DNA of 46,150 nt from positions 1-46,150 of IMG/VR virus record IMGVR_UViG_2695420763_000017; one strand, 5' to 3'. The translations under genes and the position numbers were made by a program. Shown in pieces: positions 34,376 to 37,556 of this stretch; within the stretch, counting starts at the first letter, position 1; each line of letters starts with the position of its first letter. Below the pieces are notes generated by a model that was not told the origin of the DNA, made no database searches, and saw nothing but the letters and a program-made list of their open reading frames with translations. Source of the DNA: a virus. Its lineage: Duplodnaviria > Heunggongvirae > Uroviricota > Caudoviricetes.

Positions 34376-35176
34376 ATGAAATTTCCAAAAACGCCCGTAC
34401 AGGGGCGGGGCTTCGTTCGGCCTGAAAACCAGAATCTGCAAAATTTCGGCGAAATTATCCCGATTATTTCCGGCGTTATTGGCGGGAGTGAAACCACTAT
34501 TGTTAGCGCCAGAGCGTTACATAAGGCGTTAGGTGTAGGGCGCGTTTTCCGTTCGTGGATCAAGGGGCGCATTGAAGAATATGGGTTCACGGAAGGCGTG
34601 GATTATGAGGTTGTTGAATATTTGAGCCGACCCGATCCGGTGAGCGCAAAATCTCGCCAGCAAACCGCTCTTGAGTACATCATCACAGTGAACATGGCGA
34701 AAGAACTGGCGATGGTCGAACGTACCGAACAGGGCCGCGCCGTTCGCCAGTACTTTATCAAATGCGAGGAGGAGCTACACAAGGTTGCGCCTGTTCGTTC
34801 CGCAGCGTTACGCCGGGAACTGAAAGCCCGTATCACAGTTGCCAGCTACTTTAAGCCAATGTGTGCCGCGCTGGAGGCGTACCGGGCTGAACTGGGTAAA
34901 AACACACTCCAGCACCACTACACCACGGAAGCGAACATGCTGGCGCGTATCGTGCTGGGTGGCATGACTGCAAAACAGTGGGCACTGGCGAACGGCATTA
35001 CAGGCGAACCACGCGACCACATGAGTACGTTGCAGCTTGAGCACCTTTCTTACCTTGAGCAGAGCAATATCACGCTGATTGAGTTAGGCCAGGACTACCA
35101 CCAGCGGAAGGCTGAATTAATTCGTCTTTCGCAGCGTTGGTTAGCCCGTCGCATGGAGGAAAACAGCCATGTGTAA
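34376..35176 (+). CDS. phage antirepressor-like / regulatory protein
   Basis: AGGAG RBS; 266 aa; N-terminal domain resembles antirepressor/Rha-type regulators (inference from memory). Confidence 0.55.
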   Translation: MKFPKTPVQGRGFVRPENQNLQNFGEIIPIISGVIGGSETTIVSARALHKALGVGRVFRSWIKGRIEEYGFTEGVDYEVVEYLSRPDPVSAKSRQQTALEYIITVNMAKELAMVERTEQGRAVRQYFIKCEEELHKVAPVRSAALRRELKARITVASYFKPMCAALEAYRAELGKNTLQHHYTTEANMLARIVLGGMTAKQWALANGITGEPRDHMSTLQLEHLSYLEQSNITLIELGQDYHQRKAELIRLSQRWLARRMEENSHV

Positions 35177-35635
35177 CGCTCTGACCGTTACAAAAAGAGA
35201 AAGCGCCCCGTTGCCGGAGCGCCTTTGTGAACGAATAGCCTACTGCGCCATATTGCTTACTGTCTACGAGGCAGATTATAGCGTTGTGGTCGCACAGAGT
35301 GAAGGCGCTGATCACCGTTACTACAGCACGCCAGAAATGCAGAATATTTTGCTGCAAAATGTCGTTGGTCACACTGTCCGGAAAGCAAAAAATTTTGCTG
35401 GTGGCGCGACTGATGCGATTTTGTCAGGTCGCCAGGTGCTGATCAATCTGATGTCTGATTTCGTTCTGGATAAAACAAAGGCGACCGCAGAGGGCCGCCA
35501 GTGGGAAAGCTACATACCTGAACGCATCGCCAACAATGCCAGATTTACGGCTGGTGGGCAATGTGTCAGCTTTGCACCAATGACTCTATGTTTAACTGAG
35601 GGTCATTATGGTGAATATGCTGGCTTGCTGGTGGG

Positions 35636-35836
35636 CTATTCCTGCTCTTTAACATTGCCATGCCGCGATGTTTTCCAGGTATGCGACCCCATTTTTGTGC
35701 GCCTGTACTCTTTAAGGAATTTCTCAAGGACAAACGCACAGGGCGCGAATCTGTCTGACTCATGCTCGTACGCTATCTTTCTGCGCTGTCTTTTCCGTGC
35801 CGGTGATGGTGTATTGGTTGATTCTTTGTTGGTCAT
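35636..35836 (-). CDS. small hypothetical basic protein
   Basis: Minus-strand ORF downstream of the RHH gene; ends in the same ...KEQE-stop and shared 17-bp DNA repeat; could be non-coding. Confidence 0.3.
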   Translation of the reverse strand: MTNKESTNTPSPARKRQRRKIAYEHESDRFAPCAFVLEKFLKEYRRTKMGSHTWKTSRHGNVKEQE

Positions 35837-35893
35837 GGCGCTGCCCTGTAAAATAATGCACCGTAGTTCCTCACACCACGGCACCTATAGTGG

Positions 35894-36199
35894 TTATTCC
35901 TGCTCTTTAGCTTTGCGCCGCTGGAGTTCTTCACGCGCGACGGTGACGAGTTGCCCGATTTCCTCGGCAGCTTTGACTCCGATTTTTTCCACCTGCGCTA
36001 GGGCATCGAGCGAAGAAACCAGGGGATTTTCTCCGCTTCCTTCTGCCTGGCGGCGGGCGATTTCACCGCGAACGGCTGTAATCACGAAAGCGGCTATTGT
36101 TTCCCCTTCCGTTTTCGAATTTTCCATTTCCTCGATTACATCATGGGGGAAGCGGATATTTTTCATTTGCGATCTGCTGTTGATGTTTCCTGTTGCCAT
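35894..36199 (-). CDS. Arc/MetJ-type ribbon-helix-helix repressor-like protein
   Basis: KNIRFPHDVIEEMENSKTEGETIAAFVITAVRGEIARR fits a beta-strand plus two-helix RHH fold; transcribed leftward from the divergent region (alternative start 36166). Confidence 0.55.
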   Translation of the reverse strand: MATGNINSRSQMKNIRFPHDVIEEMENSKTEGETIAAFVITAVRGEIARRQAEGSGENPLVSSLDALAQVEKIGVKAAEEIGQLVTVAREELQRRKAKEQE

Positions 36200-36261
36200 C
36201 AGAATGTCCGGTTATTTTGAGGTGTGTACACATTACACCAAAAGGTGTGTTGATAAAACAC

Positions 36262-36291
36262 TTGACACTGTAGCACACTTAAATTTAATTT
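36262..36291 (+). promoter_or_regulatory. putative rightward early promoter within divergent operator region
   Basis: TTGACA (36262-36267), 17-18 nt spacer, TTAATT/TAATTT; flanked by GTGTACAC-type palindromes. Confidence 0.3.
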
Positions 36292-36389
36292 GTATACACA
36301 CCAATTGTTGTGGTGTATATACAGCAACGCCCCGCAGTGGTGGCACACATGCAGGGCGTCTAACCAAACCGTTAAACGAGGTAACGATT

Positions 36390-36755
36390 ATGGCTGGAAC
36401 ACAGCATACCCAAACTCACCCTAAATTTATATACACCTTCCTGGCGGTGCACCGTGATTGCATTGCTGACGGTAAAAACACTGTACACGTAGCCGCCGAT
36501 ACGCTGGTTGATGCCTGCGAGATGCTCAATGACATGGGCTATATCTCGGCAACATGGAAAGGGCGCGAAGAAAACACGCTGTTTATTCAGAAATGCGAAA
36601 ACAATTTTATCTGGCGTTTTATCGCCCTGAGTACGGCACAACCGCGCGTGATTCACATCGAGGCCACCAGCGAACAGGAAGCACGCCAGCAATCTCCTGA
36701 TGGCTGCGTGATGGTATTCGCTGCCCGTATTCGCCAGGAGGTGGAGCATGTGTAA
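36390..36755 (+). CDS. hypothetical protein, first gene of rightward operon
   Basis: GAGG RBS 8 nt upstream of ATG 36390; 121 aa; in-frame distal part of the long 35169-36755 open frame. Confidence 0.6.
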   Translation: MAGTQHTQTHPKFIYTFLAVHRDCIADGKNTVHVAADTLVDACEMLNDMGYISATWKGREENTLFIQKCENNFIWRFIALSTAQPRVIHIEATSEQEARQQSPDGCVMVFAARIRQEVEHV

Positions 36756-36972
36756 TGCAACATGGCCTGATGCAGCGGTAGACGCTATCAAAACGCTGAT
36801 GGATTCACTTATTGAGATTTCTGCTATCGCTGGTGTGGCGCATAAACACGCAGCCAGAGAATCAGAATGCATCTCCCATTATTTAGCATTTGTGCAGCTG
36901 AAAGCCGATCAGGCACTGGATAAGGCCGGAAAAATTATCATGGCTGATGTACAGGAGGTGCACCATGCATAA
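36748..36972 (+). CDS. hypothetical small protein
   Basis: ATG embedded in CATGTGTAA overlap with upstream stop; 74 aa. Confidence 0.5.
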   Translation: MCNATWPDAAVDAIKTLMDSLIEISAIAGVAHKHAARESECISHYLAFVQLKADQALDKAGKIIMADVQEVHHA

Positions 36973-37330
36973 CCTGTCAATTTCTGACCTTAACAGCATT
37001 CAGTTTGACGAGATATTTTCCGGGCAGCTACTGGTCAACGTGGAGAATGGACGCGTGGTAAGTAATTATCACCTGCCGGATGGTGCAATTGCCGGAAGCG
37101 TTGAAGCATTGCTGGAGCTGGCGGAACGTGCGCGACTGATTAAGCCGTCAACGTGCCATCACGATGATGATCTGCATTTTACCGGGTGTATGGTGAGTCA
37201 CTACGAAAACGGCGTTGAAGTATCCTGCGAACGTCTGCGTGATGATTGCTGTTTCGGCACACTGCCGGAATTTATCGAATTGCTGACCAGTTGCGGTTAT
37301 CAGGTCATTCAGGGGGGTAAACATGCGTGA
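36965..37330 (+). CDS. hypothetical protein
   Basis: AGGAGG RBS 6 nt upstream of ATG 36965, within CATGCATAA overlap; 121 aa. Confidence 0.55.
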   Translation: MHNLSISDLNSIQFDEIFSGQLLVNVENGRVVSNYHLPDGAIAGSVEALLELAERARLIKPSTCHHDDDLHFTGCMVSHYENGVEVSCERLRDDCCFGTLPEFIELLTSCGYQVIQGGKHA

Positions 37331-37556
37331 TGATCGTTTTAATTCCCTGAAACAGGAGTTTGATGGCGCACCGGAAGATACATCGGGCGCATTGTTGAGC
37401 ATTGCTGACATGATGAAAGCTGCATATTTTCTTATCAATACCAGTGGCTACAAGTCAGAGGGTGAAATGATTCTTAGTATTGCGTCGGACTATGCTGAAT
37501 ATGTGGCAGAGACGCGTTACAGAAGAAAATCTCTGGAGGATGTAAGCCATGCATAA
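37323..37556 (+). CDS. hypothetical small protein
   Basis: ATG within CATGCGTGA overlap; 77 aa. Confidence 0.5.
   Translation: MRDDRFNSLKQEFDGAPEDTSGALLSIADMMKAAYFLINTSGYKSEGEMILSIASDYAEYVAETRYRRKSLEDVSHA

What the first reader, a model, noticed from the sequence alone, without database searches (positions are those of the whole stretch)
35169..37556. Series of gene junctions sharing the overlap motif CATG-N2-TRA (start codon set 4 nt before the upstream stop)
Seen: five consecutive junctions use essentially the same 9-mer: CATGTGTAA at 35168 and 36747, CATGCATAA at 36964 and 37548, CATGCGTGA at 37322. Each upstream protein therefore ends in His-(Val/Ala) and each downstream ATG is embedded in the overlap. 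Inference: enforced translational coupling of the antirepressor and a small-gene operon leading into the primase, or a duplicated junction module; the first instance also suggests a real gene starts at 35169.
Basis: seen in the sequence. Interest (0 to 1): 0.4.

Follow-up and report, generated by a model that had tools for sequence, protein, structure and literature searches.

The report
Chained overlapping genes in phage satellite
Five gene junctions in an E. coli phage-satellite island share one 8-base stop/start overlap, and the first opens an unannotated 528-codon frame that runs backwards through a likely repressor gene into the next operon; this probably lets ribosomes cover the whole transcript, as in phage P4.

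Summary
CATG-N2-TRA occurs at 35168, 36747, 36964, 37322 and 37548, each exactly on a stop codon. This is far beyond chance (Poisson 5e-6).

J2-J5 are RefSeq-annotated 8-nt overlaps in the operon Icd-like, four small genes, DUF4222, primase. The element is a P4-family satellite (PICI type) at tRNA-Thr.

J1 is not annotated, but it starts a 528-codon ORF (35169-36755). That ORF runs antisense through two minus-strand genes and the promoter region, then ends in frame as the Icd-like gene.

The frame is open in 49 of 86 related loci (28 architectures), always starting at or near the ant or alpA stop. Embedded minus genes always sit third codon position on third codon position.

It is the counterpart of P4 eta/kil, where eta translation is reported to block Rho termination. 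P4 itself has 8-nt overlaps at kil-to-epsilon and epsilon-to-orf151.

Across loci about 10 small-gene families are shuffled, yet 69 of 80 distinct junctions keep 8/11/14-nt overlaps. Homology breakpoints pile up at the junctions.

Best reading: an inherited junction linker giving an unbroken translation chain. Coupling itself is inferred. It is a new variant of a known kind.

The parts
34101..34298 (+). alpA-like HTH regulator gene, first gene of the upstream transcription unit
   Evidence: RefSeq annotation of the 99.9% identical locus L001. tblastn matches to AlpA of related loci.
34376..35176 (+). AntA/AntB antirepressor gene. Its stop codon lies inside J1.
   Evidence: Pfam AntA at 2.5e-23 and PHROG anti-repressor. 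RefSeq annotation.
35168..35176 (+). J1, CATGTGTAA: ant stop overlapped by the ATG of the long ORF. GGAGG lies 9 nt upstream.
   Evidence: Identical in all 38 ant-carrying loci that had usable upstream sequence.
35169..36755 (+). Unannotated 528-codon eta-like ORF. It starts at J1, runs antisense through hypm, ylcI and the promoter region, and ends in frame as the Icd-like gene.
   Evidence: Stop counts for the span from the long-ORF start to the Icd domain are 0 in this frame against 21 and 28 in the other two + frames. Composition-based P(open) is about 2e-8. The frame is conserved open in 49 of 86 loci. A relative (L086) is 36% identical to P4 Eta over 178 aa. This exact protein is absent from the protein collection.
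35636..35836 (-). Small hypothetical gene (hypm) embedded antisense in the long ORF
   Evidence: RefSeq CDS. phrog_21027. Its third codon positions coincide with those of the long ORF.
35894..36199 (-). YlcI/YnfO-family gene, a putative repressor, embedded antisense in the long ORF
   Evidence: NCBIfam YlcI_YnfO_N at 8e-18. RefSeq CDS. Same third-on-third phase in every locus. The + strand here is T-rich, as expected for the antisense of a real gene.
36200..36389 (.). Divergent promoter/operator region between ylcI and icd. It lies inside the long ORF and holds inverted repeats and a TTGACA.
   Evidence: Repeats GGTGTGTACACA / TGTATACACACC / TGGTGTATATACA. Sequence read. Function is inferred.
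36390..36755 (+). Icd-like (P4 Kil-like) gene, the 3' terminal nested part of the long ORF
   Evidence: NCBIfam phage_ICD_like at 6e-23. RefSeq CDS. Linked to P4 Kil through L086.
36747..36755 (+). J2, CATGTGTAA: icd stop overlapped by the g5 start. The SD AGGAGG is encoded by the conserved tail RQEV.
36748..36972 (+). g5, a small gene of 74 aa (family F3, phrog_5146)
36964..36972 (+). J3, CATGCATAA: g5 stop overlapped by the g6 start
   Evidence: The same 34-nt string follows Icd directly in L005.
36965..37330 (+). g6, a small gene of 121 aa (family F5, phrog_340), paralog of g8
   Evidence: blastp against g8 gives 36% identity, E = 9e-7.
37322..37330 (+). J4, CATGCGTGA: g6 stop overlapped by the g7 start. 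The SD is a G-tract whose length varies between loci.
37323..37556 (+). g7, a small gene of 77 aa (family F7, phrog_24341)
37548..37556 (+). J5, CATGCATAA: g7 stop overlapped by the g8 start
37549..37749 (+). g8, a small gene of 66 aa (family F4, phrog_340)
37754..38044 (+). DUF4222 gene, reached after a 4-nt gap (TAAAACCATG)
   Evidence: Pfam DUF4222 at 1e-19. The junction into this gene is always a short gap, never an overlap.
38041..39846 (+). P4-family primase (DUF5906), joined to DUF4222 by a 4-nt GTGA overlap. End of the translation chain.
   Evidence: TIGR01613 primase_Cterm hit, 95.8 bits, below the model's 108.7-bit curated cutoff. RefSeq annotation as DUF5906 protein. The 4-nt overlap is seen in 28 of 30 contexts.

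Best explanation
The five junctions are copies of one inherited linker: a G-rich SD, a 5-9 nt spacer, then C-ATG-NN-TRA. The linker strings the early genes of a P4-family satellite into one unbroken chain of translated ORFs: ant, an eta-like long ORF that ends as Icd/Kil, g5, g6, g7, g8, DUF4222 and the primase.

Shown: J1 opens a 528-codon frame that is the counterpart of P4 eta. The annotated Icd-like gene is its nested 3' part, the counterpart of P4 kil. The frame crosses an inverted cassette holding a small putative repressor gene (YlcI/YnfO) and its divergent promoter.

Inferred mechanism: a helper phage switches on the alpA/ant promoter. Ribosomes handed on at J1 then translate the long ORF. 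This keeps the pyrimidine-rich RNA that is antisense to the repressor cassette covered, so Rho cannot terminate. Transcription thus reaches icd, the small genes and the primase. The later 8-nt overlaps leave no untranslated gap and couple expression of the small genes.

In the uninduced state only the internal promoter, presumably under YlcI control, can make the short Icd form.

The linker also acts as a short shared homology at which small-gene cassettes are exchanged between elements.
For: Shown by tools:
1. Coordinates, stop/start overlaps and SDs.
2. J2-J5 are annotated in RefSeq. The 8/11/14-nt overlap class dominates this segment in 91 sequences, whichever of about 10 families adjoin. 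Elsewhere in the same loci overlaps are 4 nt.
3. The long ORF has 0 stops in frame, against 10-34 in each other + frame in the 31 architectures whose spans exceed 100 codons. Composition-based P(open) is 1e-3 to 1e-10 per long-ORF architecture. In 31 of 36 representative architectures its first ATG overlaps or lies within 80 nt of an upstream co-directional stop.
4. Every embedded minus gene has its third codon positions on those of the long ORF. This includes YlcI long and short forms, hypm and a weakly Arc-like 57-aa gene.
5. The first 90 codons show no purifying selection in any of six frames. Variable sites number 18/17/21 by codon position, and 5 codons vary only synonymously against 31 that change the amino acid. 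No stop ever appears. This fits selection on translation itself.
6. Homology to P4: Eta is Phage_ASH plus Kil. The L086 long ORF is 36% identical to Eta over 178 aa, and its terminal domain is 90% identical to the window's Icd domain. P4 has vis-to-eta ATGA, kil-to-epsilon GTGCGTAA and epsilon-to-orf151 cATGTTTGA.
7. Of 145 homology endpoints in this segment, 67 lie within 20 nt of J2-J5, where 12% are expected.

[quoted passage not shown] Gram-negative PICI induction needs alpA expression (10.1101/2022.09.08.507074). Untranslated RNA is the Rho substrate, and -8 spacing is an enriched coupling class (PMC12548453).
Against: - No expression data exist. Translation of 35169-36390 in the + frame is not demonstrated.
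- Each downstream start has its own strong SD, so downstream genes could initiate independently.
- Local RNA structure is not significant: z scores are -0.6 to -0.9.
- The P4 immunity RNA (C4/IsrK type) is absent here, so the control logic differs from P4.
- The window's long ORF has no detectable Phage_ASH domain.
- 36 of 86 loci were not scored as contiguous with alpA/ant. Among the 36 representative architectures, 5 truly lack an adjacent upstream co-directional ORF, and some have only the short Icd ORF. The arrangement is therefore dispensable.
- The loci are mostly E. coli relatives and are not phylogenetically independent.
- In the observed phase the antisense frame is easy to keep open: P = 0.1-1.0 under synonymous shuffling of the minus genes. 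The statistical weight therefore rests on the parts outside the minus genes.
Confidence: 0.6

Rival explanations
1. The long ORF encodes a functional long Icd/Eta-type protein, with an N-terminal domain, a linker and the Icd domain. On this reading the ORF is a true protein-coding gene overlapping the repressor gene on the opposite strand, and the open frame reflects selection on the protein.
For: P4 Eta is a real 197-199 aa product with a Phage_ASH domain (PMC10111431). L086 has an intact Ash plus Icd long ORF. A 32-aa Ash-like remnant lies at residues 101-132 of the window ORF. Extended Icd-like proteins of 184 and 222 aa exist in databases.
Against: No Pfam, PHROG or NCBIfam domain is found outside the last 48 aa. 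The middle of the ORF is just the antisense of other genes and of a promoter. ORF length varies from 258 to 598 aa with cassette swaps. The first 90 codons show no purifying selection. Protein identity of 68% at 81% DNA identity between window and L010 is near neutral.
Confidence: 0.15
2. The junction similarity is only a by-product of tandem gene duplication and dense phage packing. On this reading the overlaps have no coupling or anti-termination role, and the long open frame is a tolerated shadow of the minus-strand genes.
For: g6 and g8 are paralogs and both follow CCATGCATAA. Overlaps can arise neutrally (PMC3887535). The antisense frame is easy to keep open in this phase. Each start has its own SD.
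Against: The same overlap class joins 21 of 29 different family pairs, including unrelated genes. Junction type is specific to position in the operon: 8/11 nt between small genes, a 2-6 nt gap before DUF4222, 4 nt before the primase. The open frame also spans 83-408 codons that are not antisense to any gene, at P = 1e-3 to 1e-10, and always starts at the upstream stop.
Confidence: 0.15
3. The long ORF is expressed as an Ant fusion by ribosomal frameshifting at J1, rather than by initiation at the ATG.
For: The two frames overlap at the very end of ant. The junction sequence is invariant in all 38 ant-carrying loci examined.
Against: No slippery heptamer is present. A canonical GGAGG-N9-ATG is present. 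Ant-less relatives start the same ORF at an ATG after alpA, and P4 uses ATGA.
Confidence: 0.03

Closest known systems
Phage P4 left operon with nested genes eta/kil (Forti et al. 1999, J Bacteriol 181:5225, as summarised in PMC10111431)
   Same: - The gene order matches: an alpA-family gene, a long ORF whose 3' end is a short toxic or division-inhibitor gene with its own internal promoter, small genes, then a P4-type primase.
- The long ORF starts on or next to the upstream stop.
- There are 8-nt overlaps after kil and after epsilon, and epsilon ends in His-Val.
- Sequence homology is traceable through L086.
   Different: - The window has ant inserted between alpA and the long ORF, joined by an 8-nt rather than a 4-nt overlap.
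- The Ash domain and the CI/C4 immunity RNA are not detectable.
- In their place is an inverted cassette with one or two protein genes (YlcI/YnfO, hypm) and operator-like repeats, read antisense by the long ORF.
- The ORF is 528 rather than 199 codons.
- There are four small genes instead of epsilon and orf151.
Phage P1 immI operon c4-icd-ant (Riedel et al. 1993, cited in PMC11897509)
   Same: The gene carries the NCBIfam phage_ICD_like domain. P1 Icd is a 73-aa FtsZ-targeting division inhibitor (PMC11897509). From memory, icd translation is coupled to the overlapping downstream ant gene and is needed to avoid premature termination.
   Different: No c4 RNA is found. ant lies upstream of icd, not downstream. 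tblastn of the Icd domain against 50,697 phage records found no P1 match, so the relation rests on the profile name only.
Generic translationally coupled overlapping gene pairs, -8 nt spacing class (review PMC12548453)
   Same: [quoted passage not shown]
   Different: Genome-wide, the -4 spacing dominates and -8 is a minor class. Here -8 (with -11) is the rule at one operon segment and is inherited as a linker across shuffled gene cassettes.
'Bro zone' of Gram-negative PICIs (PMC10111431)
   Same: The position between the integration (int, alpA) and replication zones is the same. It holds AntA/Ash-type 'Bro network' genes. The paper proposes that eta-like genes provide immunity and read-through functions.
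   Different: That paper does not mention YlcI/YnfO, antisense embedding or the junction motif: a text search found no occurrence of 'ylci' or 'antisense'.

Membership tests
P4-type eta/kil nested-gene module | A short Kil/Icd-type ORF is the in-frame 3' terminal part of a longer ORF that begins upstream of the internal promoter | tested here: met
   ORF 35169-36755 contains icd 36390-36755 in frame. The same holds in 49 of 86 loci.
P4-type eta/kil nested-gene module | Sequence homology of the terminal domain to P4 Kil | tested here: met
   L086 long ORF against Eta: 36% identity over 178 aa, E = 2e-23. L086 against the window Icd domain: 90% identity. The direct window-to-P4 match is weak, E = 3e-4 to 7e-4.
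P4-type eta/kil nested-gene module | Phage_ASH domain in the part of the long ORF upstream of Kil | tested here: not met
   Pfam scan of the 528-aa ORF at E <= 0.1 gives no hit, while P4 Eta and L086 do hit. Only a 32-aa remnant similarity is seen.
P4-type eta/kil nested-gene module | CI/C4-type immunity RNA and its target sites inside the long ORF | tested here: not met
   Rfam scan of 31000-41000 at E <= 1 gives only int-alpA RNA and a chance hit.
P4-type eta/kil nested-gene module | Long-ORF start coupled to the stop of the upstream regulatory gene | tested here: met
   An 8-nt overlap with ant here. In relatives the ATG lies 9-57 nt after the alpA stop. P4 has ATGA.
P4-type eta/kil nested-gene module | Translation of the long ORF suppresses Rho-dependent termination | not testable with these tools
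   Indirect evidence only: the frame is kept open without protein-level constraint, and the + strand RNA is pyrimidine-rich.
Translationally coupled overlapping genes (-8 class) | Downstream start codon inside the upstream ORF, 8 nt before the end of its stop, with an SD upstream | tested here: met
Translationally coupled overlapping genes (-8 class) | Downstream translation depends on upstream translation | not testable with these tools
   Folds give no significant SD sequestration. Strong independent SDs are present.
Gram-negative PICI / cf-PICI satellites | int, alpA and primase/rep in the same orientation next to a tRNA or conserved att site | tested here: met
   tRNA-Thr, int, alpA and the primase are found in L001 and the window.
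Gram-negative PICI / cf-PICI satellites | Own capsid/packaging module (the cf-PICI subtype) | tested here: inconclusive
   Only a weak TerS-like hit at 43505-44050, and the window ends at 46150. Relatives L006 and L008 do carry capsid genes.
P1 immI (c4-icd-ant) | Icd-family domain | tested here: met
   NF033153 at 6e-23. No direct similarity to P1 was obtained.
P1 immI (c4-icd-ant) | c4 antisense RNA upstream and ant overlapping downstream of icd | tested here: not met
   No C4 hit. ant lies upstream, at 34376-35176.

The most novel reading that the evidence does not exclude
The eta-like ORF is a 'translated spacer' whose product does not matter. Selection keeps 258-598 codons free of stops only so that ribosomes escort the helper-induced alpA/ant transcript through an inverted repressor cassette. 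That shields the RNA from Rho and silences the repressor by convergent transcription at the same time. Any repressor cassette that lands there (YlcI long, YlcI short, Arc-like) must sit third codon position on third codon position. The 8-nt linker is the standard connector that lets new cassettes be plugged in without breaking the chain.
Probability: 0.35. Interest if true: 0.65.

Novelty: new variant of a known kind. Interest (0 to 1): 0.5.

Why it matters
1. Annotation. A conserved ORF of 258-598 codons is missing from RefSeq in hundreds of E. coli satellites, or appears only as 'Icd-like, incomplete' pseudogenes.

2. Mechanism. The P4 eta result, that translation acts as anti-termination, gains a natural evolutionary replicate. 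Here the protein domain has been replaced but the frame is preserved. This makes the idea directly testable in PICIs, whose induction pathway downstream of alpA is poorly defined.

3. Overlapping genes. It provides many independent cases of full antisense gene embedding in one fixed phase.

4. Mosaicism. The position-specific junction rules, and the breakpoints at the linkers, offer a concrete mechanism for how satellites swap small accessory genes.

Tried and rejected
- The genome-contig scan with the Icd protein gave only 3 loci.
- tblastn of the Icd domain against the phage collection gave 1 hit, and neither P1 nor P4.
- Rfam found no C4/IsrK-type immunity RNA.
- Pfam and NCBIfam found nothing for g5-g8 or for the first 157 aa of the long ORF.
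- The PDB sequence search for YlcI gave nothing significant.
- Folding of 100-nt windows round J1-J5 was no more stable than shuffles. An SD/anti-SD pairing (CAGG with CCUG) appears in the J2-J4 minimum-energy folds, but I do not rely on it.
- The sigma-70 consensus scan called no promoter for icd.
- The codon-position test on the first 90 codons was meant to prove coding. It showed no purifying selection in any frame instead.
- The exact 528-aa protein is not in the protein collection.
- Forti 1999 (PMC94026) is not held, so P4 facts come from PMC10111431, the P4 record and memory.
- Chance was rejected by the clustering and Fisher tests.
- Pure antisense 'shadow' was rejected. Most of the improbability lies in the parts with no minus-strand gene, and the ORF always begins at the upstream stop.

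
Full report
**1. Observation**

The five 9-mers are present exactly where stated: CATGTGTAA at 35168 and 36747, CATGCATAA at 36964 and 37548, and CATGCGTGA at 37322.

In each case TRA is the stop of an ORF and the embedded ATG opens the next ORF, an 8-nt overlap. The upstream proteins end in SHV, EHV, HHA, KHA and SHA.

Every ATG has a G-rich SD 5-9 nt upstream: GGAGG, AGGAGG, AGGAGG, GGGGGG and GGAGG.

The motif is not enriched over the whole window, with 16 matches against 16.2 expected. Six + strand copies do fall within 2.4 kb, where 0.42 are expected, giving P = 5e-6. 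Five of those six sit on stop codons.

**2. Context**

The region is 99.9% identical to an island in E. coli E189, inserted at tRNA-Thr next to proA.

The RefSeq gene order there is: int, a hypothetical gene, an alpA-like HTH gene, AntA/AntB, then two minus-strand genes (a hypothetical gene here called hypm, and a YlcI/YnfO-family gene). These are followed by the Icd-like gene, four hypothetical small genes, DUF4222, a DUF5906 P4-type primase, ProQ/FinO and PerC.

Relatives carry capsid genes. The element therefore belongs to the P4-family, Gram-negative PICI or cf-PICI satellites. RefSeq annotates J2-J5 as 8-nt overlaps. It annotates nothing at 35169.

**3. Is this junction type special here?**

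I counted overlapping co-directional pairs in seven RefSeq loci. In the stretch from the Icd-like gene to the last small gene before DUF4222, 15 of 19 are 8 nt, three are 11 nt and one is 4 nt. Outside that segment, 0 of 16 are 8 nt and thirteen are 4 nt. Fisher's test gives P = 1.2e-6.

Genome-wide, -4 is by far the commonest spacing, and -1 and -8 are minor enriched classes (PMC12548453). Four-nt overlaps make up about 45% of all overlaps, and 1-nt overlaps about 15% (PMC3887535).

**4. Conservation and mosaicism**

I collected 90 related loci from E. coli genomes, three other species and IMG/VR. I called the gene chain downstream of Icd with a simple rule. The calls matched RefSeq on all seven annotated loci except at one frameshifted pseudogene in L006 and at the cut end of L010.

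The genes between Icd and DUF4222 come from about ten families and occur in many orders. Among 80 distinct junction contexts, 51 are 8-nt overlaps, 17 are 11-nt and 1 is 14-nt, all in the same phase. This class is used by 21 of 29 different family pairs.

Within these overlaps, C precedes the start in 60 of 69, the start is ATG in 68 of 69, and the stop is TAA or TGA but never TAG.

Junction type depends on position in the operon. The junction from the last small gene into DUF4222 is always a gap, mostly 2-6 nt. The junction from DUF4222 into the primase or helicase is a 4-nt overlap in 28 of 30 contexts, even when the primase family differs.

The same string, caggaggtgcaccATGcataacctg, follows Icd in L005 and follows g5 in the window. 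The string ggaggatgtaagccATG precedes different downstream genes.

BLAST homology endpoints between the window and the other loci concentrate at the junctions. Of 145 endpoints in this segment, 67 lie within 20 nt of J2-J5, where 12% are expected.

g6 and g8 are paralogs. The junction is therefore an inherited linker that travels with cassettes and marks exchange points.

**5. J1 and the long ORF**

The ATG at 35169 is the first start codon of a frame that stays open for 528 codons, up to the Icd stop at 36755. The frame runs antisense through hypm and ylcI and through the divergent promoter/operator region.

The span from the long-ORF start to the Icd domain has no stop in this frame. The other two + frames have 21 and 28 stops over the same span.

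Across 35 non-redundant architectures the pattern repeats. The frame has 0 stops, against 10-34 stops in each other + frame in the 31 architectures whose spans exceed 100 codons. A composition-based null gives P(open) of 1e-3 to 1e-10 for the parts that are not antisense to a gene.

In all 38 ant-carrying loci that had usable upstream sequence, the ORF begins at the identical J1, across 17 different ORF lengths from 258 to 598 aa. In ant-less loci it begins 9-57 nt after the alpA stop.

In 31 of 36 representative architectures, an upstream co-directional ORF ends on or within 80 nt of the first ATG.

Every embedded minus-strand gene is in the phase where its third codon positions coincide with those of the long ORF. 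This holds for YlcI long and short forms, for hypm, and for a weakly Arc-like 57-aa gene in L068 and L084.

The + strand over 35575-36250 is T-rich, as expected for the antisense of real genes. So the minus genes are real and the + RNA is pyrimidine-rich.

The first 90 codons show no purifying selection in any of the six frames. Variable sites number 18, 17 and 21 by codon position, and 5 codons vary only synonymously against 31 that change the amino acid. No stop or frameshift ever appears.

Outside the last 48 aa there are no domain hits. The exact 528-aa protein is absent from the protein collection. The 121-aa form is present on 923 contigs.

**6. Link to P4**

In P4 the left operon reads vis, an ORF historically annotated 'cI', epsilon, orf151, orf106 and alpha.

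That 'cI' frame is open for 218 codons, back into vis. It has three ATGs on the vis stop (ATGATGATG, a 4-nt overlap), which give a product of 197-199 aa. Its last 65 codons form the short product. These are Eta and Kil.

The junction from kil/eta into epsilon is an 8-nt overlap, GTGCGTAA, behind GGAGG. The junction from epsilon into orf151 is cATGTTTGA, and epsilon ends in His-Val.

Eta residues 22-146 match Pfam Phage_ASH. The L086 long ORF carries Phage_ASH plus the Icd domain. It is 36% identical to Eta over 178 aa (E = 2e-23), and its terminal domain is 90% identical to the window's Icd domain.

PMC10111431 summarises Forti et al. 1999 as follows. Kil is the truncated form made from an internal constitutive promoter. 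Full-length eta is translated only from the upstream late promoter. It is translationally coupled to the alpA homolog. Its translation prevents termination, so that transcription reads through to the downstream genes.

The window is thus a variant of this module. The Ash part and the CI RNA are not detectable. In their place sits an inverted cassette with a protein-coding putative repressor and operator-like repeats. The frame has been kept open all the same.

**7. Mechanism: what is shown and what is inferred**

Shown: the anatomy, its conservation, the phase rule, the linker behaviour and the homology to P4.

Inferred: helper-induced transcription from alpA/ant is kept translated from J1 through the long ORF and on through J2-J5 to the primase. 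This would prevent Rho loading on the pyrimidine-rich antisense RNA and couple expression of the small genes. Convergent transcription across ylcI may also help flip the switch.

Gram-negative PICI induction is known to require alpA expression (10.1101/2022.09.08.507074).

Several points argue for caution:
- There are no expression data.
- Each start has an independent SD.
- Junction RNA structure is not significant.
- 36 of 86 loci were not scored as contiguous with alpA/ant. Among the 36 representative architectures, 5 truly lack an adjacent upstream co-directional ORF. Some of these have a minus-strand cargo gene between alpA and icd, and some have only the short ORF.
- The loci are not phylogenetically independent.

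**8. Verdict**

The junction series is the visible signature of a P4-type chain of overlapping, probably coupled ORFs. Its first instance reveals an unannotated eta-like ORF that encloses antisense genes.

The kind is known (P4 eta/kil, -8 coupling). I did not find three features described in the papers searched: the embedded antisense repressor cassette, its fixed phase, and the position-specific linker rules across shuffled cassettes.

I rate it a new variant of a known kind, with interest 0.5.

Noticed in passing
window 32992-33059 (+): Rfam int-alpA RNA (RF02996) match at 45.5 bits, above the gathering score, in the gap after int.
   Followed up: no
window 36216-36323: Operator-like repeats GGTGTGTACACA / TGTATACACACC / TGGTGTATATACA, including a 13-nt inverted pair, flank a perfect TTGACA at 36262-36267 between ylcI (-) and icd (+). 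These are candidate YlcI binding sites and the internal icd promoter.
   Followed up: partly
window 36327-36359: A 10-bp hairpin (ACGCCCCGCA ... TGCAGGGCGT) sits just upstream of the icd SD. L010 has a different but still complementary pair (CCCGG ... CCGGG) at the same place. It may be a leader structure standing in for the P4 RNA elements.
   Followed up: partly
window 37311-37316 (J4), and the F5-to-F7 and F3-to-F7 junctions in other loci: The SD at this junction is a G-tract of 6 to about 10 G in different loci. With 7 G the upstream gene stops at TAA 2 nt before the ATG, replacing the 8-nt overlap. Slippage therefore changes the C-terminus but not the tight junction.
   Followed up: partly
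window 35634-35655 and 35893-35915: hypm and ylcI share their 3' ends (..K-E-Q-E-stop, TTATTCCTGCTCTTTA on the + strand). This suggests a partial duplication of the repressor cassette.
   Followed up: no
window 35884-35858, 35499-35480 and 35225-35200 (minus strand): Three terminator-like hairpins with T-runs lie on the minus strand. The first is right after the ylcI stop and the second is after hypm. All three lie inside the + strand long ORF.
   Followed up: no
L051 4472-4666 (-), L084 4643-4816 (-), L068 3919-4092 (-): Some relatives replace YlcI with a small gene of 57-64 aa that has a weak Pfam Arc-like match (E = 0.0057, 16.9 bits against a 20.4-bit cutoff). The antisense frame through it is open when ant is adjacent (L084, L068). 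It is closed when a minus-strand cargo gene separates alpA from icd (L051).
   Followed up: partly
window 36390-36755 (Icd-like protein): The Kil-type N-terminal motif occurs twice in the 121-aa protein: HPKFIYTFLAV at residues 10-20 and NNFIWRFIALS at about 71-81. The gene therefore looks like an internal duplication of a protein the size of P4 Kil.
   Followed up: no
L035 3405-3941 (-) and L051 3756-4439 (-): Minus-strand cargo genes of 178 and 227 aa with unknown function are inserted between alpA and the icd region in some satellites. They are possible accessory or defence genes.
   Followed up: no
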